Source: Rhodospirillaceae bacterium (lineage in GTDB: Bacteria; Pseudomonadota; Alphaproteobacteria; UBA6615). From it: 64,000 nt of DNA. Shown here piece by piece: positions 3,590 to 57,530 of the stretch. How positions within the stretch are numbered: the first letter of the stretch is position 1; every line of letters begins with the position of its first letter. The notes under the pieces were generated by a model, which made no database searches, was not told the DNA's origin, and was given only the letters and a program-made list of their open reading frames with translations. The position numbers and the translations under genes are program-made. The stretch covers positions 6,802-70,801 of the forward strand of contig JAYPRP010000002.1 of NCBI GenBank assembly GCA_038132575.1, read 5' to 3'.

Positions 3590-4612
3590 ATGCTCAAGAC
3601 CACGATCACCGGCAGCCTGCCGAAGCCGTCCTGGCTGGCCCAGCCCGAGACCCTGTGGGCGCCCTGGGCCGCCGAGGACCCGGCGAAGCTGGAGGAGGCC
3701 AAGCAGGACGCGGTGCGGCTCGCGATCCGCGACCAGGAGCAGGCGGGCATCGACATCGTCACCGACGGCGAACAGTCGCGCCAGCACTTCGTCCACGGCA
3801 TCCTCGAGAAGATCGAGGGAATCGACTTCGAGAAGAAGACCCGGATCGGCATCCGCGACGACCGCTACGATGCCGACTGCCCGACCGTGACGTCCGCGCT
3901 CAAGCGCATGGGTTCGATCCACGGCGACGAGGTCACCTTCGCGCGCGCCCAGACCGACCGGGCGCTCAAGTTCACCATGCCCGGGCCGATGACGATCGTC
4001 GACACGCTGGCCGACGAGCATTACGGCGACCGGCCGAAGATGGCGATGGCCTTCGCCGAGATCCTCAACGAGGAGGCGAAGGAACTGGTCGCGGCGGGCG
4101 TCGACGCGCTGCAGTTCGACGAGCCGGCCTTCAACGTCTATCTCGACGCCGTGCCGACCTGGGGCGTGGAGGCGCTGAACCGCGCCGTCGAGGGGCTCGA
4201 CTGCACGACGGCCGTCCACATCTGCTACGGCTACGGGATCGAGGCGAACCTGCAGTGGAAGGCGACGCTGGGCGACGTGTGGGAGCAGTATGCGGCGATC
4301 CTGCCGGCGCTGGCGGAGAGCGACATCGACCAGGTCTCGCTCGAGTTCGCGGGATCGCGGGTGCCCATGGAGGTGATCAAGCTGCTCGACGGCAAGAAGG
4401 ACGTGCTGGTCGGCGCGATCGACGTGACGACCCTGACGGCGGAGAGTCCGGAAGAGGTGGCCGCCGTGATCCGCGAGGCCCTGGAGTACACCACGCCCGA
4501 GCGCATCTTCCCCTGCACCAACTGCGGGATGGTGCCCCTGCCCCGCGCGGTCTCCCAGGGCAAGCTCCGGGCGCTCGGCGCCGGCGCGGCGCTGGTCCGC
4601 GCGGAGCTCTAG
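3590..4612 (+). CDS. Cobalamin-independent methionine synthase (MetE C-terminal domain)-like protein, 340 aa.
   Basis: Starts MLKTTITGSLPKPSWL with an RBS before ATG 3590. Contains the MetE-like Zn-binding region HICYGYG and C-terminal FPCTNCGM. Confidence 0.7.
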   Translation: MLKTTITGSLPKPSWLAQPETLWAPWAAEDPAKLEEAKQDAVRLAIRDQEQAGIDIVTDGEQSRQHFVHGILEKIEGIDFEKKTRIGIRDDRYDADCPTVTSALKRMGSIHGDEVTFARAQTDRALKFTMPGPMTIVDTLADEHYGDRPKMAMAFAEILNEEAKELVAAGVDALQFDEPAFNVYLDAVPTWGVEALNRAVEGLDCTTAVHICYGYGIEANLQWKATLGDVWEQYAAILPALAESDIDQVSLEFAGSRVPMEVIKLLDGKKDVLVGAIDVTTLTAESPEEVAAVIREALEYTTPERIFPCTNCGMVPLPRAVSQGKLRALGAGAALVRAEL

Positions 4613-6563: not shown

Positions 6564-6586
6564 CGGGCGGGTTTGAGACCCGCCCG
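6564..6586 (+). terminator. Hairpin CGGGCGGG-tttgaga-CCCGCCCG immediately after the stop of the 5508..6560 gene.
   Basis: Perfect 8-bp GC stem with a 7-nt loop. No strong U-tract follows. Confidence 0.45.
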
Positions 6587-6636: not shown

Positions 6637-7731
6637 TTAACTCGCCGCCGGGACCTCGAGGCCGAGCAGCGCCGCGGCGTTCGCGCCCATCACCAGCGCC
6701 TTGTCATCCTCGGAAAGGTCCTTCACCGAATCCACATGCCCGACCGGGTCGGTCTCGGCCATGTCGTAGGGATAGTCCGTGCCCATGATGATGTGATCCG
6801 CGCCCCAAGTCTCGATGAGGTAACGGAGCTGGTGCTCGGTGAAGACCACCGTGTCGAAGTAGAGCTTCTTTACATACTCGGACGGCGGTTTGGAGATCAC
6901 GGCGCGGCAGTCGTCGCGCAGGTGATAGGGGTGATCGAAGCGTCCGGAATAGGCCGGCACGTAGCCGCCGCCATGGGCGATACAGATCTTCAGCCCCGGA
7001 TAGGTCTCGAGATAACCATCGAACACCAGGTGGCCGACCGCCAGCGCGGATTCGAGCGGGTGGCCAATCGTGTTGCGGAAATAATGGTCGGACATGCGCT
7101 CCTTGTAGGAGGTACCGATGGGATGCATAAAAATCACGACCCCCAGCTCCTCAACCCGAGCGAAGAACCTCTCGAGGCCCGCGCGCGTCAGGTCCTGCCC
7201 GTTTACGTTGGTCGAGATCTCGACGCCGCGCATGCCGAGGTCGTTGACGCAGCGGTCGAGCTCGGCGATCGCAATGTCGGCATCCTGGAGCGGCACTGTA
7301 CACATGCCGACGAAGCGGTCCGGGTGCTGGGCGCAGATCTCGGCGATCCGGTCGTTCACCACATGGGCCGTGTCGCGCGCGAAGCCGACCTCATAGGCAT
7401 AGTTGTAGTGGAACGGCGCCGGCGAGATCGCCTGCACGTCGATACCGGACGCGTCCATATCCGCGATTCGGACCGCCGGATCGGTCAGCTTATCGAGGAT
7501 ATCGAGATGCTGCTGGCGGTTGATCGCCGCCGTCACCTCGTTCGAGTCCACATAGAGGTTCTTCTGATCGGCCGCTTCGGCGTCCTTCAGCATCGCGTCG
7601 GCCTCGGGCACATGCACGTGGCAGTGAATGTCGACGGTGAAGTGTTTCTTGCCGTTTCTAACCGTCTGGCCGTGATCGGCTGTCGGCGCATGGGTGCGCT
7701 TATGGGCAGGATTGGAACAGGTAAAAAGCAT
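6637..7731 (-). CDS. Amidohydrolase-2 family protein (ACMSD/LigW-like metal-dependent decarboxylase/hydratase), 364 aa.
   Basis: Start chosen at MLFTCSNP (RBS GGGAAACC). It parallels the MLFRCGHN start of the tandem paralog. HxH metal-binding motif DIHCHVHV, plus HGGG and TDYPYD motifs. Confidence 0.75.
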   Translation of the reverse strand: MLFTCSNPAHKRTHAPTADHGQTVRNGKKHFTVDIHCHVHVPEADAMLKDAEAADQKNLYVDSNEVTAAINRQQHLDILDKLTDPAVRIADMDASGIDVQAISPAPFHYNYAYEVGFARDTAHVVNDRIAEICAQHPDRFVGMCTVPLQDADIAIAELDRCVNDLGMRGVEISTNVNGQDLTRAGLERFFARVEELGVVIFMHPIGTSYKERMSDHYFRNTIGHPLESALAVGHLVFDGYLETYPGLKICIAHGGGYVPAYSGRFDHPYHLRDDCRAVISKPPSEYVKKLYFDTVVFTEHQLRYLIETWGADHIIMGTDYPYDMAETDPVGHVDSVKDLSEDDKALVMGANAAALLGLEVPAAS

Positions 7732-7758
7732 CGTGGTTTCCCTTTCTTGGGTCCCGTC

Positions 7759-7821
7759 CTTCGACAAGCTCAAGACGAGGACAAACTCAAAACCTCATGC
7801 TGAGCTTGTCGAAGCATGAGG
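7759..7821. repeat. Two adjacent hairpins carrying the 14-mer CTTCGACAAGCTCA/TGAGCTTGTCGAAG. The second is the exact 29-mer CCTCATGCTGAGCTTGTCGAAGCATGAGG (7793..7821). The same 29-mer recurs inverted at 32691..32719.
   Basis: Read directly from the sequence. The element sits between tandem amidohydrolase paralogs. Confidence 0.7.
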
Positions 7822-7829
7822 CAGTTGGA

Positions 7830-8933
7830 TTAGAGCTTCAGCAGCTTCGCCGCGTTCTCACCGAGAATGGCGCGTTTCTGTTCGTCGGACAGGTTCGACC
7901 CCATAACGTGGCCCACCGGATCGGTCTCGGCCATGTCGTAGGGATAGTCGGTGCCCATGATCACATGCTCGGCGCCGTAGTGGTTGGCCAGGAACTCGAG
8001 CTGGTCGTGGGTGAAGACCACGCTGTCAAAGTAGAAGCGCTCCAGATACGAACCCGGCCGCTTGCCTGCAGGCAGCTCGCGCTGCATGTCGGCGCGCAGC
8101 GGATGCGCGTGGTCGATGCGGCCCGGATAGGACCCGAGGAAGCCGCCGCCATGGGCGAGTACCACCTTGAGCCCCGGGTGCCGGTCCATCACACCGTCGA
8201 AGATCAGGTAGTGGACCGCAACCGTGGTCGCCAGCGGATTGCCGATGATGTTGGAGAAGTAGTGGTCCGCCAGCCGGTCGCCTTTGGCGAAGCCCGACGG
8301 GTGGATAAAGACGATGACGTCGAGCTCCTCGCACTTAGCCCAGAACGGATCGAGGCCCGCCCTGGAGAGCTCCTGGCCGGCGACGTCGGCATTGATCTCC
8401 ACGCCGCGCATTCCCATGTCTTTCACGGCGCGCTCAAGCTCGGCAACAGCCATCTGCGAATCCTGCAGGGGCACGGTGCACAGGCCGACGAAACGGTCGG
8501 GATGCTCGCCGACTACCTCGGCCAGCTTATTGTTGACCGTCTGCGCCACCTCGCGGCCCAGGTCCGGCTCCGCCCAGTAGCAGTAATGGTTCGGCGCGGT
8601 GGAGATAGCCTGCACGTCGACCCCGGTCGCGTCCATCTCGGCCAGACGCAGGGACGAGTCCGTGATCTTGGGCATGATGTCCTGGCCGTGGGCCATCTGG
8701 AACTTGCGGGTCTCGTCGTTGGCGAACCAGAGCAGCGGCTCGTTCTGGAGATCGAAGACCTCCTTCACCAGTGCGTCCGCCTCGGGGACATGCAGGTGGC
8801 AGTGTATGTCAACCGTGCGCACGCTGAGTTTCTCGACCTTGACGGTATGCCCGCCCGCGTCGCTGGCGGGGGCGTGGGCGGCATGCCCGTGGGGTTGTCC
8901 CTGAAGATGATTGTGGCCACATCTAAAAAGCAT
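7830..8933 (-). CDS. Amidohydrolase-2 family protein, tandem paralog of 6637..7731, 367 aa.
   Basis: DIHCHLHV, HGGG and TDYPYDMAETDPVGHV motifs. About 55% identical to its neighbour by eye. Confidence 0.75.
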   Translation of the reverse strand: MLFRCGHNHLQGQPHGHAAHAPASDAGGHTVKVEKLSVRTVDIHCHLHVPEADALVKEVFDLQNEPLLWFANDETRKFQMAHGQDIMPKITDSSLRLAEMDATGVDVQAISTAPNHYCYWAEPDLGREVAQTVNNKLAEVVGEHPDRFVGLCTVPLQDSQMAVAELERAVKDMGMRGVEINADVAGQELSRAGLDPFWAKCEELDVIVFIHPSGFAKGDRLADHYFSNIIGNPLATTVAVHYLIFDGVMDRHPGLKVVLAHGGGFLGSYPGRIDHAHPLRADMQRELPAGKRPGSYLERFYFDSVVFTHDQLEFLANHYGAEHVIMGTDYPYDMAETDPVGHVMGSNLSDEQKRAILGENAAKLLKL

Positions 8934-11499: not shown

Positions 11500-11546
11500 G
11501 TCGGAACCCGGGCTGGTTGGGAACCCGCCCGCCGCACACGAAAAAG

Positions 11547-11576
11547 CGCGGGTCCGAGACCCGCCCTTCTCTATTT
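11547..11576 (+). terminator. Rho-independent terminator GCGGGTC-cga-GACCCGC followed by a T-rich run (ccttctctatttc).
   Basis: 7-bp GC stem plus a U-rich tail 48 nt after the stop of the 9160..11499 gene. Confidence 0.55.
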
Positions 11577-11592
11577 CGGCATCAACCTCGTG

Positions 11593-17913: not shown

Positions 17914-19320
17914 ATGGCCGACCCAAGCCCCGACTTCTCCGCGATCCCCTCGCTCGACCGCCTGTTGCAGGCGCCGTCGGTCGCCACCCTCGTGGAATCG
18001 CACGGACGCGCCGCGACGACGGCGGCACTGCGCGCGGCGCTCGACGGCGCCCGCGGGACGATCGCGGCGGGCGACGCAGCTGACCTCTCGGAAGATGCCT
18101 TCGCGCGAACGGCGGCGGCGCAACTCGCGCGCGCGGCGGCCCCCGGGCTGCGCCGCGTCTTCAACCTGACCGGCACCGTGCTGCACACAAACCTGGGCCG
18201 GGCGCCGCTGGCCGAAGCGGCAATCGAGGCGATGGCCGAGGCCGCGCGCGGCGCGAGCAACCTGGAATACGATCTCGACAGCGGCAAGCGCGGCGACCGG
18301 GACACCCATGTCGAGGAACTGCTCTGTGAGCTGACAGGTGCCGAGGCCGCGACAGTCGTGAACAACAATGCGGGCGCCGTCCTGCTGCTCCTGAACGCGC
18401 TGGCGCTGCGCAAGGAAGTGCCCGTCTCGCGCGGCGAGCTGGTCGAGATCGGCGGCGCCTTCCGGATTCCCGACATCATGGCGCGGGCGGGCGCCAAGCT
18501 GGTCGAGGTCGGTACCACCAACCGGACCCACGCCCGGGACTTCGAGGGTGCGATCGGCGCCAGGACCGCGCTGGTGATGAAGGTCCACACGTCGAACTAC
18601 ACGGTCCAGGGCTTCACCGCCGACGTGCCCGAGGGCGATCTCGCCGGGATCGCCCACGCGGCGGACATTCCCTTCGCCGTCGATCTGGGTGCCGGGGCGC
18701 TGGTGGATCTCGAGCGCTGGGGCCTGCCCCACGAGCCCACCCCGCGCGAGACGCTGGCGGCGGGCGCGGACATCGTCACCTTCTCCGGCGACAAGCTGCT
18801 GGGCGGCCCCCAGGCGGGGCTGATCGTCGGGCGCGCGGACCTGATCGCGCGGCTCAAGAAGAACCCTCTCAAGCGTGCGCTCCGCTGCGACAAGGCAACC
18901 CTCGCCGCGCTGGCCGCGACCCTGATGCTCTACCGCGATCCCGACCGGCTGGCTGAACGGCTGCCCACGCTCAAGCTCCTGGCGCGTGGGGCGGACGATA
19001 TTCGCGCCGTCGCGGGATCGCTGCGCGACGCGGTTGGCGAGGCCGTCGGCGACGCGTTCACGGTCTCGGTCGAGGACTGCGCCGGACAGATCGGATCGGG
19101 CGCGCTCCCGGTCGAGAGCCTGGGCAGCGCCGCACTGGTCATCCGGCCGGCCGCGGTGCGCGGCCAGGGCGCGAAACTCAAACGGCTGGCGGCATCGCTC
19201 CGCGCCTTGCCCGTGCCGGTCATCGGGCGCGTGCATGACGACGCGCTCTGGCTCGACCTGCGCTGCCTCGACGATACCGACGGCTTCTGCGCCCAGCTCC
19301 AAAATCTGCACACATCATGA
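17914..19320 (+). CDS. selA: L-seryl-tRNA(Sec) selenium transferase (selenocysteine synthase), 468 aa.
   Basis: [15 protein letters not shown] and the PLP-lysine motif [13 protein letters not shown]. Size and order match selA; it is followed by selB with a 4-nt overlap. Confidence 0.9.
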
Positions 19321-25623: not shown

Positions 25624-25719
25624 GGAGGAGGACCGTTCCCCGGTGGGGCGCCCGGTCTTCAAAACCGGTGAGGGGCGTTAGACGTGCCTGGTGGGTTCGA
25701 CTCCCACCCTCTTCCGCCA
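25624..25719 (+). tRNA. selC: tRNA-Sec (anticodon UCA), 96 nt including encoded CCA.
   Basis: 8-bp acceptor stem GGAGGAGG/CCTCTTCC (one G-U pair). 6-bp D-stem. Anticodon stem CCGGT/ACCGG with loop CTTCAAA (anticodon TCA). Long variable arm. 5-bp T-stem GTGGG/CCCAC with TTCGACT loop. Discriminator G, then CCA. The 8/5 architecture is diagnostic of bacterial tRNA-Sec. Confidence 0.85.
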
Positions 25720-25812: not shown

Positions 25813-28035
25813 ATGACCCCGACCGTCCCGATCACACATGATATTGTCCTGATCGGCGGCGGCCATAGCCATGTGGCCGTCCTCAAGCGGTTCGGCATGA
25901 AGCCCGAGCCCGGGATCCGGCTGACTCTGATCACCCGGGACCTGCTGACACCCTATTCGGGCATGATCCCCGGCTACATCGCCAACCATTACAGCGCGGC
26001 CGAGGCGCATATTGACCTGCGCCCCCTCGCCGCCTTCGCCAACGCCCGGATCATCCACGCGGCGGCGACGGGGCTGGATCTGCAAAACAACTATGTCCAG
26101 GTCGCCGGCCGCCCGTCCGTGGCGTTCGATCTCGTCTCCGTCGACACCGGCTCGACCCCGTCAACGGCAGACATCGTCGGCGCCGGACACGGGTTGCCGG
26201 TGAAACCCATCGACCGCTTCCTTGAAACGTATCACCGCCTGACCGACGAGATCAGGAACCATCGTGGCCCGTTCCACATCACCATTGCGGGTGGCGGCGC
26301 GGGCGGGGTCGAGCTCGCGCTCGCGCTGCGCCACCGGCTGGGGCTGGCGGCACCGGGCCTCGGTAAGCGCCCCGGCGATCTCCGCTTCGCCATCGTCGAG
26401 GCCGCCGATACGCTCTTGCCCGGCTACAACAGGGCGGCCCGCCGCAAGCTCGCCCGCGCGCTCGCGGACCGCGGGATCGCCGTGCAAACCGGCGCGGGCG
26501 TGACACAGGTCGGGCCGGATACGGTGACCCTCGCCGACGGCGGCGTGCTTGACAGTGACAGAACGATCCTGGTGACCTCGGCCGGACCGCCCCACTGGCT
26601 CGCGGACAGCGATGTGGCGCGCGACGACCGCGGCTTCGTGCGGGTCGATGCGACGCTCCGCTCGCCGTCGCATCCGCAACTCTTCGCCACCGGCGACGCC
26701 GCCTCGATGGACGGGCACGCGCTGCCGAAGGCGGGGGTCTATGCCGTCCGCCAGGGGCCTTACCTGGCCGAGAACCTGGGCCGCGCGGCGCGGGGCCGGC
26801 CGCTGCGCAGCTACCGGCCGCAGGGCCAGACCCTGGCGCTCATCACCACGGGCGACAGGTTCGCCATCGCCGCACGCGGCTCGCTCTCCGTTCAGGGCGC
26901 CTGGGTGTGGCGCTGGAAGGACTGGATCGACCGACGCTGGATGCGCAAATACCAGGAGCTGCCGGACATGGATGCGGGCGACGGCGCGGACGGCGACGCA
27001 ACGCTCGAGGCCATGCGCTGTGGGGGCTGCGGCGCCAAGGTGCCGGCCCCGGTGCTCCGCCGCGCGCTCGACCGTTTGCCGCCGCAGGAAATCGAGGGCC
27101 TCGACCAGGGGCTGGATTCACCCGACGACGCAGCGGTCCTCACCCCGCCGCCGGGCAAGGCACTAATCCAGACCGTCGACCAGTTCCGCGCCTTCATCGA
27201 CGATCCCTATCTCTTCGGACGCATCGCGGCCAACCACTGCCTGGGCGATATCTTCGCAATGGGCGCCGAGGCCCATTCAGCACTGGCCGCGGTGATGCTG
27301 CCCCACGGCGAGGACGCGAAGACGTCCGACGATCTCTACCAGCTGCTCGCGGGTGCGACCGAGACCCTTGCAGAGGCCGGCGCGGTTCTCGCCGGCGGCC
27401 ACACCGGCGAGGGTGCGGAGATGGCCTTCGGCCTGACGGTCAACGGCTATGCCGATCCGGACACCATCCTGCGCAAGGGCGGGCTCGCGCCCGGCGACGC
27501 CCTAATCCTCACCAAGCCGCTCGGCACGGGCGTCCTGTTCGCCGCCGACATGCGTGCCAAGGCGGGCGGCGACCATGTGACGGCGGCGTTCGCCTCCATG
27601 CAGCGCTCGCTCGCGCTGGCGATCCCGGTGGTCCGGGACCATGGCGCGCACGCCGCCACCGATGTCACCGGCTTCGGGCTGGCGGGGCACCTGCTGGAGA
27701 TGCTCAACGCATCGGGCGTCGATGCCGAGCTCGAGCTCAACGCGCTGCCGGTCCTGCCGGGCATCGCCGCGCTGGTGGCCGCCGGCCATGAGAGCACGCT
27801 CCGGCCCGGCAACGAGGAGGCGGTCGGCAACGCCGCGCCCGTCTCAGCGCACCCGAACTTCCCGCTGCTGTTCGATCCGCAGACCGCGGGCGGGCTTCTC
27901 GTTGGCGTCCCGAGCGAACGGGCCGAGGCCTGCCTTGACGCGCTCCGCGCCGGCCCCGCGCCGGACGCGACGATTATCGGGCAAGTCACTGCAAGGATGG
28001 GCGACGTCTGCGTGCTGCGCTACGCCGAAACCTGA
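25813..28035 (+). CDS. selD: Bifunctional protein: N-terminal FAD-dependent pyridine-nucleotide-disulfide (NADH dehydrogenase-like) oxidoreductase domain fused to selenide, water dikinase, 740 aa. Cys-type active site.
   Basis: N-terminus DIVLIGGGHSHVAVLK (Rossmann FAD motif) and a second GGGAGGVELA nucleotide-binding motif. C-terminal half has SelD hallmarks: MRCGGCGAKV (catalytic Cys, not Sec) and an AIR-synthase-like fold. Confidence 0.85.
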   Translation: MTPTVPITHDIVLIGGGHSHVAVLKRFGMKPEPGIRLTLITRDLLTPYSGMIPGYIANHYSAAEAHIDLRPLAAFANARIIHAAATGLDLQNNYVQVAGRPSVAFDLVSVDTGSTPSTADIVGAGHGLPVKPIDRFLETYHRLTDEIRNHRGPFHITIAGGGAGGVELALALRHRLGLAAPGLGKRPGDLRFAIVEAADTLLPGYNRAARRKLARALADRGIAVQTGAGVTQVGPDTVTLADGGVLDSDRTILVTSAGPPHWLADSDVARDDRGFVRVDATLRSPSHPQLFATGDAASMDGHALPKAGVYAVRQGPYLAENLGRAARGRPLRSYRPQGQTLALITTGDRFAIAARGSLSVQGAWVWRWKDWIDRRWMRKYQELPDMDAGDGADGDATLEAMRCGGCGAKVPAPVLRRALDRLPPQEIEGLDQGLDSPDDAAVLTPPPGKALIQTVDQFRAFIDDPYLFGRIAANHCLGDIFAMGAEAHSALAAVMLPHGEDAKTSDDLYQLLAGATETLAEAGAVLAGGHTGEGAEMAFGLTVNGYADPDTILRKGGLAPGDALILTKPLGTGVLFAADMRAKAGGDHVTAAFASMQRSLALAIPVVRDHGAHAATDVTGFGLAGHLLEMLNASGVDAELELNALPVLPGIAALVAAGHESTLRPGNEEAVGNAAPVSAHPNFPLLFDPQTAGGLLVGVPSERAEACLDALRAGPAPDATIIGQVTARMGDVCVLRYAET

Positions 28036-28048
28036 CGGCCCGAAACGA

Positions 28049-28074
28049 AAGGCCCTCCCTGACGGGAGGGCCTT
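28049..28074. terminator. Bidirectional terminator hairpin AAGGCCCTCCC-tgac-GGGAGGGCCTT between convergent selD and the grdB-like gene.
   Basis: Perfect 11-bp stem, 14 nt after the selD stop. Confidence 0.6.
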
Positions 28075-30153: not shown

Positions 30154-32550
30154 CTAGTACTTGCCGAGCGCCTTGAGCACCCGCTCGGGCGTGATCGGCT
30201 GGGCGAAGACCGTCGCCCCCAGGGGACTGAGCGCGTCGTTGACGGCGTTCAGGATCGCGCCGGGCGCACCCGCGGTGCCGGCCTCGCCCGCACCCTTAGC
30301 GCCGAGCTCGGATTCCTTCGTCAGCGTCTCCACATGCCCGATCTCGATATCCGGCATCTCGCCCGCCATGGGCACCAGATAGTCGGCCATGTTCGCGTTC
30401 AGGAAGTTGCCGTCCAGGTCATAGCGGCACTCCTCGTAGAGCACGCCGCCGATGCCCTGGACAATCGAGCCGCGCACCTGTTCGTCCACCAGGAGCGGGT
30501 TGATGACCTTGCCGCAATCCTCAACGCAGTAGAACTTGAGCAGCTCGACCGTGCCGAGCTCGGGATCGACCTCGCAGGTCACGGCCTGGAAACTGTTGGT
30601 CATCGCCACGGGATACTTCTTCGGGATGTAGTGGCGCGTCGCCATCATCTCGGACTGGAAATCCTGGGGCAGCGTGTCGGGCCGGAAGTAGGCCACGCGC
30701 GCCACCTCCTCGAGCGGCATGCGCTCCTCGCCGGTCGCCCGGTCAACCACGACGCCGTGGCGGATGTCCAGCGACGCGGCCTCGGACTGGAGCAGGATCG
30801 CGGCCACGTCGAGGACGTTGTGACGCAGCGCCTTGGCCGCCTGGAGCGCTGCCTCGCCGGCAATGCCCGCACCGCCGGAACCGCCCGCGCCCCAGCCGAC
30901 CGGGACGTTGTCCGTGTCGCCCGAGATCACCTTTACCTTGTCCGGCGTGGTGCCGAAGGCGCTGGCCGTCACCTGCTGGATCACGGCCTCCGAGCCCTGG
31001 CCCTGCTCGGTGATCGACGTCTGGACGATCACGGCCCCCGACGCGTCCATCCGCGCTGCCGCGCCGTCCTGGGACGATATGCGCGCCCCGCCCAGCCCGT
31101 AGGTGTGCGGGCCCGGGTTCGTCATCTCGACAAGGGTCGCAAAACCGACGCCGCGGTAGATGCCCTGTTCGCGCAACCGGGCCTGCTCCGCGCGGAAACC
31201 CTGGTAGTCGAACATGGCAAGAAGCTTGTCGAGCGAGGCCTCGTGGGAGAGGGCCTCCATCTTCAGGCCGGTGATGAAATCGCGCGGATAGCTGTCGTCC
31301 GCCATGAGGTTGCGCCGGCGCACATCGACCGGATCGAGCCCGAGCTTGCGCGCACCCTCTTCCATGAGCGTTTCGGTGATCGCGACGGCGACGGGATGGC
31401 CAACCGCGCGATACTGGCTCATCGGCGTCTTGTTCTGGAACACGACGCGCGAGCGCGCCTTGTAGTTCGCGTGGTTGTAGGGCGCGCCGACATAGTTGAT
31501 GACCTGCAGCGCCTCGAGCGCGGAGGTGCGGGGATACATCGAGTAGGGACCGACGCCCGTGAGGTCGTCCATCTCGATGGCGAGCAGTTCGCCATCCTCG
31601 GCAAACGCCGCGCGCACGTGAGCGCGGTGGTCGCGCGCGTGCAGGTCCGTCAGGAAGGATTCAATCCGGTCGGCGATGAACTTCACCGGCCGTTTCATGA
31701 TCTTGGAGATCGCGGCCGTCGCCATCTCGTCGGGATAGGTGTGTCCCTTGACGCCATACGCACCGCCGACGTCGCCGCACACGATCCGGACATTCTGGTT
31801 CGGGATGTCGAGATGCCGGGCGAACAGGTCCTGCATCATGTGCGGGGCCTGGTGCGAATGGTACGAGGTCAGGCGGTTCTCGGAGCTGTGATAGTCGGCG
31901 ATGATCGCGCGCGATTCCGGGCACACGCCGGTGTGACGGCCGAAATGCATGGTGTGCCCGACCACCGCCGCCGCCTCGGCAAACGCCTTTTCGGTGTCGC
32001 CGATATCGTGATTCATCTCGAACAGCAGGTTGTCGCCAAGATCGGCATGCATCACGAGCGTGTCGTCGTCGAGCGCGACCTCGGGATCGGCGAGCACCGG
32101 CAGTTCCTCGAACTCGACCTCCAGCAGTTCGAGCGCGTCCTCGGCTTCCGCCCGGCTGTGGGCGACGATCGCGGCCACCGGCTCGCCCTGCCAGCAGGCC
32201 CGGTCCACTGCCATCGCGTACTGGGGCGCCGACTTCATGCCCTTGAAGTGGGCAAGCGTTCCGACCCAGGGGGTACAGACCTCGGCGATCTCCTTGCCCG
32301 TGAACACCCGGATCACGCCGGGGCTCGCCAGCGCGGCCGCGTCGTCGATCGAGACGATCTTCGCGTGCGCATAGGGCGAACGGAAATAGGCCACATGGAC
32401 CATGCGCGGCAGCGACAGGTCATCGACATACCTGCCCTGGCCGGCCACCAGGCGCGCGGCGTTGGCGCGCGGCACGGTCTTGCCGATGAAGGTTTCCTCG
32501 CGGTCGAGGACGCTTTCCTCGCCCGAATGGTCCGCCACGCTCATGAGCAC
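30154..32550 (-). CDS. Xanthine dehydrogenase/CoxL-family molybdopterin-binding subunit, 798 aa.
   Basis: ELGAKGAGEAGTAGAPGAILNAVNDAL C-terminal active-site Glu region and a QYRAVGHP loop. Paralog of 32735..35125 and 9160..11499. Confidence 0.8.
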   Translation of the reverse strand: MLMSVADHSGEESVLDREETFIGKTVPRANAARLVAGQGRYVDDLSLPRMVHVAYFRSPYAHAKIVSIDDAAALASPGVIRVFTGKEIAEVCTPWVGTLAHFKGMKSAPQYAMAVDRACWQGEPVAAIVAHSRAEAEDALELLEVEFEELPVLADPEVALDDDTLVMHADLGDNLLFEMNHDIGDTEKAFAEAAAVVGHTMHFGRHTGVCPESRAIIADYHSSENRLTSYHSHQAPHMMQDLFARHLDIPNQNVRIVCGDVGGAYGVKGHTYPDEMATAAISKIMKRPVKFIADRIESFLTDLHARDHRAHVRAAFAEDGELLAIEMDDLTGVGPYSMYPRTSALEALQVINYVGAPYNHANYKARSRVVFQNKTPMSQYRAVGHPVAVAITETLMEEGARKLGLDPVDVRRRNLMADDSYPRDFITGLKMEALSHEASLDKLLAMFDYQGFRAEQARLREQGIYRGVGFATLVEMTNPGPHTYGLGGARISSQDGAAARMDASGAVIVQTSITEQGQGSEAVIQQVTASAFGTTPDKVKVISGDTDNVPVGWGAGGSGGAGIAGEAALQAAKALRHNVLDVAAILLQSEAASLDIRHGVVVDRATGEERMPLEEVARVAYFRPDTLPQDFQSEMMATRHYIPKKYPVAMTNSFQAVTCEVDPELGTVELLKFYCVEDCGKVINPLLVDEQVRGSIVQGIGGVLYEECRYDLDGNFLNANMADYLVPMAGEMPDIEIGHVETLTKESELGAKGAGEAGTAGAPGAILNAVNDALSPLGATVFAQPITPERVLKALGKY

Positions 32551-32654
32551 CGTTCCCCTGTGACCTGTTATCGGGGGAACGGTACAGGCCCGGGACCTCT
32601 ACGGCCAGCCCGGCGGGCGTTCACGATCGGGACAGCGGGCGCGACAACAGGCAC

Positions 32655-32719
32655 GCCCTCATCCTGAGCTTGTCGAAGGAGAGGGCGGCCCCTCATGCTT
32701 CGACAAGCTCAGCATGAGG
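32655..32719. repeat. Second copy of the twin-hairpin element. It contains TGAGCTTGTCGAAG (32665..32678) and the inverted exact 29-mer CCTCATGCTTCGACAAGCTCAGCATGAGG (32691..32719).
   Basis: The reverse complement of this 29-mer equals the 29-mer at 7793..7821. It lies between the tandem XDH-family paralogs. Confidence 0.7.
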
Positions 32720-32734
32720 TTCGTGATTCCCCGC

Positions 32735-35125
32735 CTAGAACTTGCCGAGCGCCTTCAGGATTCGTTCCGGCGTGATCGGCTGGTGCGACACGCGGACGTC
32801 GAAGGGCGAGAGCGCATCGTTGATGGCGTTCATGACCACCCCCGGCGCGCCGGCCGTGCCGGCCTCGCCCGCACCCTTGGCGCCGAGTTCCGAATCCGCC
32901 GTCGGCGTCTCCACATGGCCGACATGGATGTCCGGCATCTCGCCGGCCATGGGCACCAGGTAGTCGGCCATATTGGCGTTCACGAGATTGCCCGTATCGT
33001 CGTAGCGGCATTCCTCGAGCAGCGCGCCGCCGAGCCCCTGGATCACGCCGCCGCGCACCTGCTCGTCCACCAGCTGCGGGTTCAGCACCGTGCCGCAATC
33101 CTCGACGACCCAGTAGTCCAGGAACCGCAGGAAACCGGTCTCCGGATCGACCTCGACGTAGCAGGCCTGGATGCCGTTCGTGAACGCGATGTTGTACTCG
33201 CGCGGCACGAAATGGCGGGTCGCCATCAGCTCGGGCTGGAAGCCCTTGGGGATCAGGTCCGAGCGGAAGTAGGAGATCCGCGCCAGCTCGTCGAGCCCCA
33301 TCCGCTCGTTGCCCGTGTCGTCATCGACCACCACGCCCTCGCGGATGTCGAGGGTCTTCGGGTCGGCCTGGAGGAGCTGGCCGGCGATGTCCTTGATGTT
33401 GTAACGCAGCGCCTTGGCCGCCCGGAGCACGGCCTCTCCGCCGATGCCCGCGCCGCGCGAGCCCCAGGTGCCGCCGCCGGTGGGCACGTTGTCCGTGTCG
33501 CCGGTGATGACCTTGACCCGGTCCGGGCTGGTGCCGAACGCGGTGGCCGCGATCTGGCCCATGATCGCGTCGGTGCCCTGTCCCTGCTCGGTCACCGACG
33601 TGTGGACGACGATCGAGCCGCTCGAATCGAGCCGCACCTGCGCGCCGTCCTGGGACGAAATCCGCGCGCCGCCGATGCCGTACATGGCCGCGCCCGGGTT
33701 GGTGAGCTCGATCATCGCCGCGAAGCCGATGCCGCGATAGACGCCCTCGCCGCGCAGCCTGTCGCGCTCGGCCTTCATGCCCTCGTAGTCCATCGCGCCG
33801 AGCAGCTTGTCGAGTGACGCGTGGTGGGAAAGGCCCTCGAAGACGATGCCGCTCGCGCCCTTGGTCGGGTAGGCGTCGTCCGTGATGAGGTTGCGCCGGC
33901 GGATATCGACCGGGTCGATCCCGAGCGCCTGCGCACCCTTGTCCACCATGGCCTCGGTCACGGCGAAGGCGACCGGGTGGCCGACGGCGCGGTACTGGCA
34001 CATGACGTTCTTGTTCTGGAACACGACCTGCGCCTTGGCGCGATAGTGCTCGTGCTTGTAGGGGCCGCCGGTGAAGTTCAGGACCTGGTTCGCCTCCATC
34101 GCGCTCGTGCGCGGGTACATGGAGTAGGGCCCGACGCCGGTCAGGTCGTCGATCTCGATCGCGGTGATGTCACCGTCCCTGGTGAAGCCCATCTTGGCGT
34201 GCACCCGGTGCGCGCGGGCATGGATGTCGGTGAGGAAGGACTCGATCCGGTCGGCGGCGAACTTGACCGGCCGGCCAAGCATCTTCGACAGGGCCACCGT
34301 GGCCATCTCGTCGGCATAGACATGGACCTTGATGCCGAACGACCCGCCGACGTCGCGGCAGACCACGCGAACCTGGCCCTCGGGCACGCCGACATGCTTG
34401 GCGAAGATGTGCTGCATCATGTGCGGCGCCTGGTTCGACATGTGCACGGTCAGCTTGTCGTCGGCCTCGTCATAGTCCGCGACGAGGACGCGCGGCTCCA
34501 GCGTGACGCCGGTGTGGCGGTCGAAGTGGTAGGTCTCCTCGACCACGACGTCCGCGGCGGCAAAGGCCGCGTCCACGTCCCCGGCCTCGACCCCGTTCTC
34601 GAAGGCGATGTTGTCGCCGAGATCGGGATGGATGACCGGCGTTCCGGGGTCGCCCGCCGTCTCGGGATCGGTGACCGCCGGCAGCTCCTCATACTCGACC
34701 GTGATCGCGGCCGCGGCATCCTCGGCCTCGGCCCGGCTGTTCGCGACCACGGCGGCAACCGCCTCGCCCTGCCAGCAGACATGATCGACGGCGATCGCGT
34801 GCTGCGGGGCCGACTTGAGGCCCTTGAAGTGGGTGAGCACGCCGACCCAGGGCTCGCAATACTCCGCCAGTTCGGCGCCGGTGACGACGCGAACGACACC
34901 GGGCATCCCGGCGGCCGCGCTCGTGTCGATCGAGATGATTCTCGCATGGGCGTGGGGCGAGCGGAGATAGACCGCGTGCACCATGCGGGGCAGCTTCAGG
35001 TCATCGACGAACTGGCCCTTGCCGCGCACGAGCTTGCGCACGTTCGGCCGCGGCACCACCTTGCCGATGTAGCTGTTGGGGCGTCCCAGGACGCTCGAAT
35101 CCGGACTCAGGGCTTCGTCGGTCAT
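32735..35125 (-). CDS. Xanthine dehydrogenase/CoxL-family molybdopterin-binding subunit, 796 aa.
   Basis: ELGAKGAGEAGTAGAPGVVMNAINDAL and QYRAVGHPVAFAV. Tandem paralog of the downstream gene. Confidence 0.8.
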   Translation of the reverse strand: MTDEALSPDSSVLGRPNSYIGKVVPRPNVRKLVRGKGQFVDDLKLPRMVHAVYLRSPHAHARIISIDTSAAAGMPGVVRVVTGAELAEYCEPWVGVLTHFKGLKSAPQHAIAVDHVCWQGEAVAAVVANSRAEAEDAAAAITVEYEELPAVTDPETAGDPGTPVIHPDLGDNIAFENGVEAGDVDAAFAAADVVVEETYHFDRHTGVTLEPRVLVADYDEADDKLTVHMSNQAPHMMQHIFAKHVGVPEGQVRVVCRDVGGSFGIKVHVYADEMATVALSKMLGRPVKFAADRIESFLTDIHARAHRVHAKMGFTRDGDITAIEIDDLTGVGPYSMYPRTSAMEANQVLNFTGGPYKHEHYRAKAQVVFQNKNVMCQYRAVGHPVAFAVTEAMVDKGAQALGIDPVDIRRRNLITDDAYPTKGASGIVFEGLSHHASLDKLLGAMDYEGMKAERDRLRGEGVYRGIGFAAMIELTNPGAAMYGIGGARISSQDGAQVRLDSSGSIVVHTSVTEQGQGTDAIMGQIAATAFGTSPDRVKVITGDTDNVPTGGGTWGSRGAGIGGEAVLRAAKALRYNIKDIAGQLLQADPKTLDIREGVVVDDDTGNERMGLDELARISYFRSDLIPKGFQPELMATRHFVPREYNIAFTNGIQACYVEVDPETGFLRFLDYWVVEDCGTVLNPQLVDEQVRGGVIQGLGGALLEECRYDDTGNLVNANMADYLVPMAGEMPDIHVGHVETPTADSELGAKGAGEAGTAGAPGVVMNAINDALSPFDVRVSHQPITPERILKALGKF

Positions 35126-55779: not shown

Positions 55780-56646
55780 ATGATCGAAGTTGTGGGTTTT
55801 CGCTACTGTCGGCTGGGAACGGCCGATCTTGAGGAAACGGTCAAATTCGCCACCGACATGATCGGGCTGGAGGACGTGGGGCGCGAGAACGGTGCCGCCT
55901 ACATGCGCGGCGACGACCGCGACCACAATATCTGCTACTTCCAGGGCGATCCCACCGACCACACGCTGGGCCTGGAGCTCGCGGACTTCGACGCGCTCGA
56001 CGCGGCGGAAAGCAGCCTGTCCGCGGCCGGCCTCGAGGTGTATCGCGGCAGCGACGAGGAGGCCGCTGCGCGCCGGTGCATGGGCTACATCAACTTCAAG
56101 GACCCGAGCGGAAACTCCATCGACCTGACGGTACGGCCGTTCGCCTCCGGACGGCGCTACTTCCCCGGGCGTGACGCCGGCATCGACGAGTTCAGCCATA
56201 TCGGGCTCGCGGTGACCGACCCGCGCGAGGCCGAGAAGTTCTGGTCCGAGATGTTCAACTTCCGGACCAGCGACTGGATCGGCTGGTCCGCCCTCATGAC
56301 CTTCGATGCGGTGCATCACCGCTTCGCCCTGTTCCCGTCGAACAAGCCCGGCATCCAGCACATCAACTTCCAGGTCCACGAGACCGACGACGTGATGCGC
56401 TCGAACTACTTCCTGCGCGATCACCAGGTGCGCATCCAGGCCGGGCCGGGGCGGCATTCGCTTTCCGGTGCACGGTTCCTCTACTTCTACGGCCCGGACG
56501 ACATGATCTACGAATACTCCTGCGGCGTGAGGATGGTCGACGACAGCTGGCGCGCCCGCCAGTTCCCCGTCAACGACGCCTCGTTCTGCGCCTGGGGCTC
56601 GCGCCCCGACCTGAGCGTTCTCGAAGGCGAGAATGCCGCGGAGTGA
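55780..56646 (+). CDS. Type I extradiol ring-cleavage dioxygenase (VOC superfamily, catechol 2,3-dioxygenase-like), 288 aa.
   Basis: Two VOC modules. The second contains FSHIGLAV, HHRFALF and E-containing metal ligands. Confidence 0.7.
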   Translation: MIEVVGFRYCRLGTADLEETVKFATDMIGLEDVGRENGAAYMRGDDRDHNICYFQGDPTDHTLGLELADFDALDAAESSLSAAGLEVYRGSDEEAAARRCMGYINFKDPSGNSIDLTVRPFASGRRYFPGRDAGIDEFSHIGLAVTDPREAEKFWSEMFNFRTSDWIGWSALMTFDAVHHRFALFPSNKPGIQHINFQVHETDDVMRSNYFLRDHQVRIQAGPGRHSLSGARFLYFYGPDDMIYEYSCGVRMVDDSWRARQFPVNDASFCAWGSRPDLSVLEGENAAE

Positions 56647-56675
56647 TCGGCGTCCGGATCCCGTGAGACCGGCTC

Positions 56676-57530
56676 ATGATTGAGATCGTCGATATCCGCT
56701 ACTGCCGCCTCGGCACCGCCGACCTCAAATCGGCGGTCGACTTCGCGACGTCCATGATCGGGCTCGAGGAGGTCGCCCGCGCCGACGGACAGGTCTATCT
56801 CCGCGGCGACGACCGGGATCACAACATCTGCTACTTCGCTGGTGACCCGGCCGACCACACCTTCGGGCTGGAGGTGGAAACGTCCGAAGCGCTCGACGCG
56901 GCAGCGACCACGCTCGAGGCGGCGGGCGTCGCGGTACGCCGCGGCAGCGACGACGAAGCGGCCGCGCGCCGGGTCATGGGGTTCATCAACTTCCGCGACC
57001 CCACGGGCAACTCGGTCGACCTGGTCGTCCGCCCGCACCATTCCGGGCGCCGGTATTTTCCGTCGCGCGACGCGGGTATCACCGAGTTCAGTCACATCGG
57101 GATCAAGACGGACAACCCCGCGCGCGACGAGAAATTCTGGAGCGGCCTGTTCAACATCCAGGCGAACGACCGGATCGGCGATGCGGCGCTAATGTCCTTC
57201 GACGAGGTGCACCACCGCATCGCACTGTTCCCGACCGACCATGCCGGCATCCAACACATCAACTTCCAGGTCGAGAGCATCGACGACATCATGCGCTCGC
57301 ACTATTTCCTGACCGAGCGCCAGGTCCAGATCAGGTTCGGGCCCGGGCGGCACCCGACGTCGGGTGCCATGTTCCTCTACTACGAGGGCCCCGACGGGAT
57401 GACCTACGAGTATTCGTCCGGCGTACGGAACGTGGACGAGAGCTGGCGACCACGCCAATTGCCCTTCAAGGACGAGTCCTTCTGCATGTGGGGCGCGCGC
57501 CCGAACATTCCCGAATTTTCCGACGGCTGA
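56676..57530 (+). CDS. Type I extradiol dioxygenase, tandem paralog, 284 aa.
   Basis: About 60% identical by eye to the previous gene (MIEIVDIRYCRLGTADL vs MIEVVGFRYCRLGTADL). Confidence 0.7.
   Translation: MIEIVDIRYCRLGTADLKSAVDFATSMIGLEEVARADGQVYLRGDDRDHNICYFAGDPADHTFGLEVETSEALDAAATTLEAAGVAVRRGSDDEAAARRVMGFINFRDPTGNSVDLVVRPHHSGRRYFPSRDAGITEFSHIGIKTDNPARDEKFWSGLFNIQANDRIGDAALMSFDEVHHRIALFPTDHAGIQHINFQVESIDDIMRSHYFLTERQVQIRFGPGRHPTSGAMFLYYEGPDGMTYEYSSGVRNVDESWRPRQLPFKDESFCMWGARPNIPEFSDG

What the first reader, a model, noticed from the sequence alone, without database searches (positions are those of the whole stretch)
7759..7821. 29-bp palindromic element (CCTCATGCTGAGCTTGTCGAAGCATGAGG) plus degenerate inverted partner, sitting between tandem paralogs. 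Same element recurs at 32655..32719.
The exact 29-mer occurs at 7793..7821 and, as its reverse complement, at 32691..32719. At both loci it is paired with a second, degenerate hairpin carrying the same 14-mer core in opposite orientation. In both cases the element lies in the short spacer between two tandemly duplicated minus-strand genes, just upstream of the downstream gene start. It could be a REP/MITE-like repeat, a terminator/attenuator pair, or a shared regulator-binding site coupling the two paralog pairs.
Basis: seen in the sequence. Interest (0 to 1): 0.55.

Follow-up and report, generated by a model that had tools for sequence, protein, structure and literature searches.

The report
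Dispersed palindromic REP-type repeat pairs
The repeated 29-base hairpin is one unit of a widespread family of small palindromic "junk-like" repeats (REP elements). These settle just after gene ends, so its position between two pairs of duplicated genes is coincidence, not shared regulation.

Summary
An exact 29-mer (31-mer with AA) lies at 7793-7821 (+) and 32691-32719 (-). Each copy is paired with a second hairpin carrying the same 15-nt centre, CTGAGCTTGTCGAAG, inverted. Both pairs sit between tandem paralogs.

It is not locus-specific. The exact 29-mer occurs in more than 120 unrelated metagenome contigs:
- it is almost always intergenic;
- it lies a median of 13 nt after an upstream stop codon;
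- it is usually a head-to-head dimer with a 12-14 nt AT-rich spacer, which is the locus 1 layout.

Orthologous spacers in relatives are empty, carry a diverged dimer, or hold other sequence. A near-identical tail-to-tail dimer sits at a non-orthologous site in a related genome. The 15-nt centre, closed by covarying base pairs, is found in many phyla and in viral contigs.

The architecture and organisation match the "CGTC-tagged" REPs of Di Nocera et al. 2013, which have no known transposase. There is no support for a terminator, attenuator or regulator site at family level.

Verdict: an ordinary, recently inserted REP dimer. It is a new member or variant of a known kind. The only open question is how such elements spread.

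The parts
7753..7780 (-). Locus 1, unit A. A degenerate hairpin unit that reads CCTCGTCTTGAGCTTGTCGAAGGACGGG on the minus strand. Its centre is at 7759-7773 with 1 mismatch.
   Evidence: It folds weakly alone (-8.5 kcal/mol, z -0.8) but pairs with unit B in the long hairpin.
7781..7792 (.). Locus 1 spacer of 12 nt, ACAAACTCAAAA (+). On the mRNA strand it reads UUUUGAGUUUGU.
   Evidence: Head-to-head dimers of the family have 12-14 nt spacers that are 63% A+T.
7793..7821 (+). Locus 1, unit B. This is the exact 29-mer CCTCATGCTGAGCTTGTCGAAGCATGAGG. The shared identity starts at 7791. It ends 8 nt before the stop codon of gene 7830-8933.
   Evidence: The hairpin folds at -13.5 kcal/mol as RNA and -7.9 as DNA.
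32655..32686 (+). Locus 2, unit C: GCCCTCATCCTGAGCTTGTCGAAGGAGAGGGC. It has a 10-bp stem with one bulged A.
   Evidence: -15.5 kcal/mol. An identical 33-nt unit lies at a non-orthologous site in L245.
32687..32690 (.). Locus 2 spacer, GGCC (4 nt).
   Evidence: This is the tail-to-tail arrangement. The gap from the neighbouring centre to the 29-mer is 12 nt, as in a minority class of the family.
32691..32721 (-). Locus 2, unit D. The exact 29-mer (31-mer including AA) on the minus strand. It lies 13-15 nt after the stop codon (32735-32737) of gene 32735-35125.
6637..7731 (-). Context only: the downstream Amidohydro_2 paralog. Its start codon is at 7729-7731, 21 nt from unit A.
   Evidence: and the gene calls.
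7830..8933 (-). Context only: the upstream Amidohydro_2 paralog. Its stop codon is at 7830-7832.
30154..32550 (-). Context only: the downstream MoCoBD paralog. The likely ATG is at 32544.
32735..35125 (-). Context only: the upstream MoCoBD paralog.

Best explanation
Both sites are dimers of a repetitive extragenic palindromic (REP) element, a small non-coding, non-autonomous dispersed repeat.

Anatomy of one unit:
- a short tag, CCTC here (TGTC, CGTC or CGTTC in other lineages);
- a few freely covarying base pairs;
- a nearly invariant centre, CUGAG-CYYGU-CGAAG.

I infer that the centre extends the stem by C-G and U-A pairs, a tandem sheared G.A/A.G, and a G-C pair, around a 5-nt loop.

Two inverted units make a dimer that can fold into one long hairpin. 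Locus 1 is the family's canonical head-to-head dimer. Locus 2 is the rarer tail-to-tail form.

What is shown: dimers were inserted recently and independently of the flanking genes, into the permissive stretch just 3' of a stop codon. Their position between tandem paralogs is incidental.

What is inferred:
- Spread is replicative. Either an enzyme acts in trans on the folded single strand, or copies move by recombination or gene conversion. No dedicated transposase is known for this class.
- Once transcribed within these operon-like pairs, the -41 and -61 kcal/mol hairpins probably act as passive RNA structures. They may shield the upstream message from 3' exonucleases.
- Because they start 15 nt or less after the stop codon, they may hinder terminating ribosomes, as reported for E. 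coli REPs. That would make them modifiers of expression, not a dedicated regulator.
For: Dispersal:
- 76% have the inverted partner upstream with a modal gap of 19-21 nt. Locus 1 has a gap of 19.
- 13% have the partner downstream with variable gaps. Locus 2 has a gap of 12.

Position:
- Only 1 of 120 copies lies inside an ORF.
- 49 lie between unidirectional genes, 18 between convergent genes and 7 between divergent genes.
- The median distance after the upstream stop codon is 13 nt.

Presence or absence at orthologous sites:
- Amidohydrolase spacer: empty, 38 nt, in L250 (87% ortholog); a diverged dimer with compensatory stem changes in L245-247 (84%); different palindromes in L248/249 (81%).
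- MoCoBD spacer: no element in L372, L373 or L374 (88-81%).
- A near-identical tail-to-tail dimer sits at another place in L245/246, where the window has none.

Structure:
- The two pairs closing the centre are Watson-Crick in 133 and 136 of 151 units, against about 62 and 53 when shuffled.
- The formal count is 92.2% paired against 74.5% shuffled (0 of 500 shuffles as high) and 35-58% when the partner is slid.
- The dimers fold at -40.8 kcal/mol (z -4.8) and -60.8 kcal/mol (z -8.0).

Literature:
- CGTC-tagged REPs have a CGTC/TGTC/CCTC tag, an 8-9 bp stem starting AT, and a 4-5 nt loop.
- They are mostly head-to-head heterodimers with conserved spacers, and rarely tail-to-tail dimers with variable spacers.
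- They lie within 20 bp of upstream ORF ends, are mainly alphaproteobacterial but occur in several phyla, and have no dedicated transposase (PMC3733652).
- REPs less than 16 nt from a stop codon lower translation in E. coli (cited in PMC12306157).
Against: - Copy number in the source genome cannot be measured, because only 64 kb is available and it holds two dimers.
- No mobilising gene was found in the window or among 1,330 neighbouring proteins.
- The empty and filled sites are too diverged to define insertion boundaries or a target duplication.
- The tandem G.A model is my inference. ViennaRNA leaves the 11 nt as an open loop.
- No expression data exist, so any effect on mRNA or translation is by analogy only.
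- Figure 2 of Di Nocera et al. could not be read, so exact family membership is unverified.
Confidence: 0.85

Rival explanations
1. The element is an intrinsic terminator or attenuator pair. The hairpins would have evolved to stop or modulate read-through between the tandem genes.
For: - At locus 1 the mRNA reads a 9-bp GC-rich hairpin followed by UUUUGAGUUUGU.
- Elements sit directly after stop codons.
Against: - The terminator scan found nothing at either locus.
- Locus 2 has no U-tract.
- In 36 head-to-head dimers between co-directional genes, the spacer is U-rich on the mRNA strand 17 times and A-rich 16 times.
- The 29-mer's orientation relative to transcription is 30:19. Singletons across phyla are 19:23.
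- The element is absent from the same spacers in relatives.
Confidence: 0.08
2. The element is a shared operator for a transcription factor, or an RNA-binding regulator, that co-regulates the two paralog pairs.
For: Identical 31-mers lie in two spacers of similar gene architecture within 25 kb.
Against: - The same 29-mer lies next to more than 100 unrelated genes in other contigs.
- It lies after the upstream stop codon, not in a promoter. No sigma-70-like site was found.
- It is missing from orthologous spacers.
- The two loci have different unit arrangements and opposite orientation.
- A third tandem paralog pair has no element.
Confidence: 0.02
3. The element is local duplication debris carried along when the genes were duplicated.
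For: It lies in the spacer of tandem duplicates at both loci.
Against: - The paralogs are 50% and 63% identical in protein, and 70-81% identical in their best DNA stretches. The element copies are 100% identical.
- The two paralog families are unrelated to each other.
- More than 120 other contigs carry the element.
Confidence: 0.01
4. The centre is a selected structured module in RNA or single-stranded DNA, recognised by a conserved factor. That factor would be either an unknown, widespread mobilising enzyme or a host protein. This would explain why the 15-nt centre is kept in sequence across phyla while the stems covary.
For: - The centre, with complementary closing pairs, is seen in Bacteroidota, Chloroflexota, Cyanobacteria, Nitrospirota, Planctomycetota, Acidobacteriota, Actinomycetota, candidate phyla radiation lineages, several Proteobacteria classes and viral contigs.
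- In partner units that were not selected by the search, every centre position is at least 93% conserved except loop position 7, which varies T/C, 73 to 39. This includes the G.A/A.G positions. Stem positions -1/+2 and -2/+3 vary more and covary.
- Recent insertions imply a working mechanism.
Against: - There is no orientation bias relative to transcription.
- The G.U versus A.C asymmetry is inconsistent: 18 versus 4 in one set and 26 versus 42 in the other.
- No recurrent neighbouring gene was found.
- Compensatory changes could arise without selection, by template switching within quasi-palindromes or by gene conversion among copies.
- No Rfam family matches.
Confidence: 0.15

Closest known systems
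CGTC-tagged REPs (families CGTC-1 to CGTC-4) of Di Nocera, De Gregorio and Rocco 2013, BMC Genomics 14:522 (PMC3733652)
   Same: - The tag is allowed to be CCTC or TGTC.
- The stem starts with AT in units B, C and D.
- The 5-nt loop is of the CTTG(A/T) type. CGTC-3 and CGTC-4 back-translate to ...CTTGA... and a Sulfurovum CGTC-2 copy (RHSELVSGS) to ...CTGAGCTTGT... (my back-translation).
- Head-to-head heterodimers with conserved spacer length predominate, and tail-to-tail dimers with variable spacers are rare.
- Location is less than 20 bp from upstream ORF ends, between unidirectional or convergent genes.
- The class is mainly alphaproteobacterial with a presence in several phyla, and has no dedicated transposase.
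   Different: - The stem carries two invariant G.A mismatches. Their pipeline discarded palindromes with more than one mismatch.
- The 3' end is GAGG, which pairs with the tag, instead of an unpaired CCA tail.
- The canonical partner unit starts AC/GT rather than AT.
- The exact sequence is in no searchable text, and Figure 2 could not be inspected.
REPINs mobilised by RAYT transposases (Bertels and Rainey 2011; PMC3116915, PMC3337134)
   Same: - Two inverted REP units separated by a short spacer fold into one long hairpin.
- The copies are dispersed, intergenic and non-autonomous.
- Subfamilies have conserved spacers, and the whole dimer appears to move as a unit.
   Different: - There is no GTAG head.
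- No RAYT gene was found nearby.
- Alphaproteobacteria carry few or no Y1 transposase genes (PMC6006769).
- The centre is conserved across phyla, whereas REPIN sequences are lineage-specific.
E. coli REP/BIME elements acting as mRNA 3' stabilisers and as translation down-regulators when less than 16 nt from a stop codon (as cited in PMC12306157)
   Same: - It is a stable stem-loop placed 8 and 13-15 nt after the stop codon of the upstream gene in a co-directional pair.
- The family median distance is 13 nt.
   Different: - The sequences are unrelated.
- No functional data exist for this family. The analogy is inference only.

Membership tests
REP (repetitive extragenic palindrome), generic | A short (20-40 bp) imperfect palindrome able to form a stem-loop. 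| tested here: met
   The units are 28-32 nt. The stems are 9-10 bp with -13.5 and -15.5 kcal/mol. The closing pairs covary.
REP (repetitive extragenic palindrome), generic | High copy number dispersed within one genome. | not testable with these tools
   Only 64 kb of the source genome is held, with 4 units in 2 dimers. Indirect evidence: more than 120 metagenome contigs carry the exact 29-mer, and about 5 dimers occur in about 117 kb of this lineage.
REP (repetitive extragenic palindrome), generic | Extragenic, mostly between unidirectional or convergent genes and close to the 3' end of an ORF. | tested here: met
   1 of 120 copies is inside an ORF. There are 49 unidirectional, 18 convergent and 7 divergent contexts. 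The median distance from the stop codon is 13 nt. The window distances are 8 and 13-15 nt.
CGTC-tagged REP superfamily (PMC3733652) | A terminal tag of CGTC, or its variants TGTC or CCTC. | tested here: met
   All four window units begin CCTC. TGTC, CGTC and CGTTC heads occur in other lineages. Here the tag pairs with a 3' GAGG, whereas the paper describes it as unpaired.
CGTC-tagged REP superfamily (PMC3733652) | A stem of 8-9 bp starting with complementary A-T and T-A, and a loop of 4-5 nt. | tested here: inconclusive
   Units B, C and D start AT...AT. Unit A (GT) and the canonical partner (AC/GT) do not. An 8-'bp' stem with a CTTGT loop results only if the tandem G.A is counted as stem. ViennaRNA gives an 11-nt loop.
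CGTC-tagged REP superfamily (PMC3733652) | A short unpaired 3' tail, consensus CCA. | tested here: not met
   The 3' end is GAGG followed by variable bases.
CGTC-tagged REP superfamily (PMC3733652) | Mostly head-to-head dimers with conserved spacers. Tail-to-tail dimers are rare with variable spacers, and heterodimers are common. | tested here: met
   There are 91 head-to-head dimers (gap mode 19-21), 16 tail-to-tail dimers (gaps 11-60) and 14 single units among 119 sites. The partners have different stems (ACC/GGT versus ATG/CAT).
REPIN-RAYT system | Two inverted REPs with a spacer, folding into one long hairpin. | tested here: met
   -40.8 and -60.8 kcal/mol with inter-unit pairing.
REPIN-RAYT system | A GTAG-type head and a cognate single-copy RAYT (Y1 transposase) gene flanked by the same REPs. 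| tested here: not met
   There is no GTAG. No transposase was found in the window's unassigned ORFs or among recurrent neighbours of 1,330 proteins. A genome-wide search was not possible.
MITE | Terminal inverted repeats derived from an insertion sequence, plus a target-site duplication. | tested here: inconclusive
   The filled and empty orthologous spacers are too diverged to define the boundaries. No related insertion sequence is known.
Intrinsic (Rho-independent) terminator | A GC-rich hairpin with a short loop followed by a U-tract on the transcribed strand. | tested here: not met
   The scans found none. Locus 1 is U-rich after the first hairpin but locus 2 is not. There is no family-level bias, 17 versus 16.
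Any Rfam RNA family | A score at or above the family's gathering threshold. | tested here: not met
   Only tRNA-Sec is found elsewhere in the window. The local scans give generic long-hairpin matches far below threshold.

The most novel reading that the evidence does not exclude
The 15-nt centre (CUGAG-CYYGU-CGAAG) may be a hairpin module with an invariant tandem G.A and covarying closing pairs. It is kept in sequence across more than a dozen bacterial phyla and in viral contigs, and it is still inserting in this alphaproteobacterial lineage. If so, an undiscovered and very widely distributed factor recognises the folded strand. That factor could be the missing mobilising enzyme of the transposase-less CGTC-type REPs, or a conserved host protein.
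Probability: 0.15. Interest if true: 0.6.

Novelty: new member of a known kind. Interest (0 to 1): 0.25.

Why it matters
For annotating this window, the element should be masked as a dispersed repeat. It should not be read as a regulatory link between the amidohydrolase and molybdo-enzyme paralog pairs. It may modestly affect expression of the gene just upstream.

More generally, this REP class has no known transposase and was suggested to be heading for extinction. The data here point instead to recent insertion:
- identical 31-mers 25 kb apart;
- empty orthologous sites in relatives;
- the same dimer at non-orthologous places in related genomes.

This lineage would therefore be a reasonable place to look for the mechanism that moves such elements.

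Tried and rejected
- Rfam, whole window and both loci at permissive thresholds: nothing real.
- Promoter and terminator scans: none.
- Full-text search for the core sequence: no paper holds it. It is also absent from the supplements of the REP survey.
- PLSDB plasmids: only 15 weak partial hits, so the family is rare on plasmids and organism names could not be obtained that way.
- Search for a cognate gene: all-versus-all clustering of 1,330 proteins within 2.5 kb of elements gave only phage head genes (an artefact of the viral contigs) and common families: histidine kinase, ABC transporter, short-chain dehydrogenase, acyl-CoA dehydrogenase. Unassigned ORFs in the window are SelA, CoA transferase, alanine-racemase-like, ferredoxin reductase and cytochrome c.
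- Strand-specific (RNA-level) selection: the G.U versus A.C asymmetry was 18:4 in the cross-phylum set but 26:42 in the partner set. Orientation relative to transcription was 30:19 and 19:23. I do not claim an RNA-specific function.
- Hammerhead, K-turn, boxB, T-loop, integron attC and SECIS resemblances were considered from memory and dropped. The defining cores do not fit and Rfam gave no support.
- Defining insertion boundaries or a target duplication from filled versus empty sites failed, because the spacers are too diverged.

Full report
**Observation**

The 29-mer CCTCATGCTGAGCTTGTCGAAGCATGAGG is present exactly at 7793-7821 (+) and, reverse-complemented, at 32691-32719. None is expected by chance. 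The identity runs to 31 nt.

The 15-nt centre CTGAGCTTGTCGAAG occurs four times in the window, two copies per locus in opposite orientation. Each unit is a hairpin: 9-10 bp of stem around an 11-nt non-palindromic centre, at -13.5 and -15.5 kcal/mol as RNA.

Both loci lie between tandem minus-strand paralogs:
- two Amidohydro_2 proteins, 50% identical;
- two MoCoBD (CO/xanthine-dehydrogenase large-subunit-like) proteins, 63% identical.

- The composites are different arrangements. Locus 1 is reverse-centre, 12-nt spacer, forward-centre. Locus 2 is forward-centre, 4-nt spacer, reverse-centre. These cannot be interconverted by flipping strands, and the 31-mer points opposite ways relative to transcription.
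- The constant feature is closeness to the upstream stop codon (8 nt, and 13-15 nt). The distance to the downstream start is 21 nt at locus 1 but about 105-110 nt at locus 2.

**Distribution of the exact 29-mer**

The flanks are all different apart from a few duplicate assemblies.

Of 119 distinct sites:
- 91 have an inverted partner upstream, typically CCTCACCCTTCGACAAGCTCAGGGTGAGG. The gap is tightly distributed, with a mode of 19-21 nt from the centre. That corresponds to a 12-14 nt spacer that is 63% A+T. Locus 1 has this layout, with a gap of 19 and a decayed partner.
- 16 have the partner downstream at variable distance. This is the locus 2 layout, with a gap of 12.
- 14 have no partner.

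Using a crude GC3-based gene caller:
- only 1 of 120 copies lies inside an ORF;
- 49 lie between co-directional genes, 18 between convergent genes and 7 between divergent genes;
- the median distance from the upstream stop codon is 13 nt.

**Orthologous sites**

Homologs of the upstream amidohydrolase led to syntenic contigs. Their spacers differ:
- L250 (87% ortholog) has a 38-nt spacer with no element.
- L245-247 (84%) carry a diverged dimer, CCCCGTGCTTCGAGAGGCTCAGCACGGGG ... CCTCGTTCGGAGCCTGAAGAAGGACGAGG. Its stem differences from the window copy are compensatory.
- L248/249 (81%) carry unrelated palindromes.

For locus 2:
- L372 and L373 (88% and 87%) have a DUF983 gene in the spacer and no element.
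- L374 (81%) has a 55-nt spacer with no element.
- L371 (97%) lacks the spacer and second paralog altogether.

Conversely, L245/246 have a tail-to-tail dimer downstream of a different MoCoBD gene. Its first unit is identical over 33 nt to window 32655-32687. The orthologous window site (about 11500-11592) has none.

A third tandem paralog pair in the window (55780-57530) has no element. The element is therefore a recent, lineage-specific insertion that moves as a dimer. Its association with paralogs is incidental. It is far younger than the gene duplications, because the copies are 100% identical while the paralogs are 50-63% identical.

**The wider family**

Hits come from:
- sphingomonads, Caulobacter, Rhizobium and other Proteobacteria;
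- Bacteroidota, Chloroflexota, Cyanobacteria, Nitrospirota, Planctomycetota, Acidobacteriota, Actinomycetota, Zixibacteria and candidate phyla radiation lineages.

Several hits are inverted pairs 40-60 nt apart.

In 151 distinct units, the two positions on each side of the centre are complementary in 133 and 136 cases, against about 62 and 53 after shuffling, and many pair types are used. The formal count gives 92.2% paired against 74.5% shuffled (0 of 500 shuffles as high) and 35-58% when the partner is slid.

Outer sequence is lineage-specific: CCGTTCGnn, TGTCAnn, or CCTCAnn. The centre also occurs in more than 120 viral contigs, 63% of them with both closing pairs intact.

In partner units that the search did not constrain, every centre position is at least 93% conserved except loop position 7, which varies T/C (73 to 39). 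This includes the G and A residues that would face each other. The stem positions covary.

I therefore read the unit as tag + variable pairs + C-G, U-A + tandem G.A/A.G + G-C + a 5-nt loop. The G.A part is inference, because the energy model leaves it unpaired.

**Function tests**

- No terminator or promoter consensus was found.
- The spacer shows no U-rich bias on the mRNA strand, 17 versus 16.
- There is no orientation bias relative to transcription: 30:19 for the 29-mer and 19:23 for singletons across phyla.
- The wobble asymmetry is inconsistent: 18:4:42.
- No Rfam family matches.
- No recurrent neighbouring gene and no transposase in the window.

These results argue against a dedicated terminator, an operator or a strand-specific RNA gene. 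They fit a DNA-level repeat that is tolerated just after stop codons.

As a transcribed hairpin it may still protect the upstream message. Because it starts 15 nt or less after the stop codon, it may also impede terminating ribosomes, as reported for E. coli REPs (cited in PMC12306157). That is analogy, not evidence.

**Comparison with known elements**

Di Nocera et al. 2013 (PMC3733652) describe CGTC-tagged REPs as follows:
- a tag of CGTC, TGTC or CCTC;
- an 8-9 bp stem beginning AT, and a 4-5 nt loop;
- mostly head-to-head heterodimers with conserved spacers, and rare tail-to-tail dimers with variable spacers;
- a position less than 20 bp from upstream ORF ends;
- mainly Alphaproteobacteria but several phyla;
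- no dedicated transposase.

Peptides listed in their supplement back-translate to the same CTTG(A/T) loop. For a Sulfurovum CGTC-2 copy they give the same CTGAGCTTGT half (my back-translation).

The present family fits the organisation and most of the anatomy. It differs in three ways:
- two invariant G.A mismatches in the stem (their pipeline discarded palindromes with more than one mismatch);
- a 3' end that pairs with the tag instead of a CCA tail;
- AC/GT in the partner unit.

It resembles REPINs in being an inverted doublet that moves as a unit. It lacks the GTAG head and any RAYT gene, and Alphaproteobacteria have few Y1 transposases (PMC6006769).

**Verdict**

This is an ordinary REP-type dispersed repeat, best filed as a new member (possibly a variant) of the CGTC-tagged REP kind. 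The terminator and regulator options are not supported.

The residual interest is the unexplained cross-phylum conservation of the centre and the signs of recent insertion in a class with no known mobilising enzyme.

Noticed in passing
window 32546-32586 (minus-strand RNA): A separate 12-bp hairpin, GUACCGUUCCCC...GGGGAACGGUGC, at -24.4 kcal/mol (z -3.1). Its 3' arm ends 1-2 nt before the likely ATG (32544) of the downstream MoCoBD paralog and covers the probable ribosome-binding stretch. It is unrelated to the REP centre.
   Followed up: partly
L371 4001-6391 versus window 30154-35125: In the closest relative, the single MoCoBD gene is about 99% identical to the window's upstream paralog for residues 1-700. 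Over the last ~90 residues it switches to resemble the downstream paralog (C-terminus RVLKALGKY), and the GST gene follows directly. This looks like a recombinational deletion between the tandem paralogs that removed the spacer.
   Followed up: yes
L248/L249 11093-11307: The orthologous amidohydrolase spacer holds a different palindromic repeat set: CCCTCTCCTCCCCGGAGGAGAGGG and CCCTCTCCTCCCATGGGGGAGGAGAGGG, nested inside CACCTCACCC...GGGGTGAGGTG. This spacer seems to be a hotspot for hairpin repeats.
   Followed up: no
L372 6411-6902 and L373 6416-6742: In the 87-88% relatives, the spacer between the MoCoBD paralogs holds an opposite-strand DUF983 gene. It is absent from the window's 184-nt spacer.
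   Followed up: no
L106 1337 and 7075; L056 7138; L063 5459; L026 5294-5419; L009 4449-4625; L122 36-95: Nested and tandemly amplified forms of the unit occur in other phyla. One example is GTCATCCTGAGC[CCTGAGCTTGTCGAAGGG]CGAAGGATCA, where both arms are duplicated symmetrically. There are also arrays with 45-57 nt periods. This suggests hairpin-templated copying.
   Followed up: no
L027 338-430; L107 about 4486-4530: One unit abuts the 3' end of a tRNA-Glu gene in a Staskawiczbacteria genome. Another is fused to a tRNA/tmRNA-like 3' end (GGACGCGGGTTCGATTCCCG), where ARAGORN finds no gene.
   Followed up: partly
window 25624-25715 (+) and 17914-19320 (+): The window holds a tRNA-Sec gene (71.2 bits) and a SelA selenocysteine synthase gene. 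A relative's contig also has SelB. The organism therefore makes selenoproteins.
   Followed up: no
window 55780-56646 and 56676-57530 (+): A third tandem paralog pair, with DNA repeats 71-75% identical at 896-nt spacing, is separated by 29 nt and has no REP element.
   Followed up: partly
window 6564-6586 and 28049-28074: Perfect 9-bp GC-rich hairpins lie just past the ends of gene 6637-7731 and gene 25813-28035. They are ordinary terminator-like structures, not members of the repeat family.
   Followed up: no
L177/L243 about 500-565: A classic CGTC-1-like unit, TGTCATTCCCGG...GGGAACCCAG, lies directly beside a copy of the 29-mer. The two REP types therefore coexist in some genomes.
   Followed up: no
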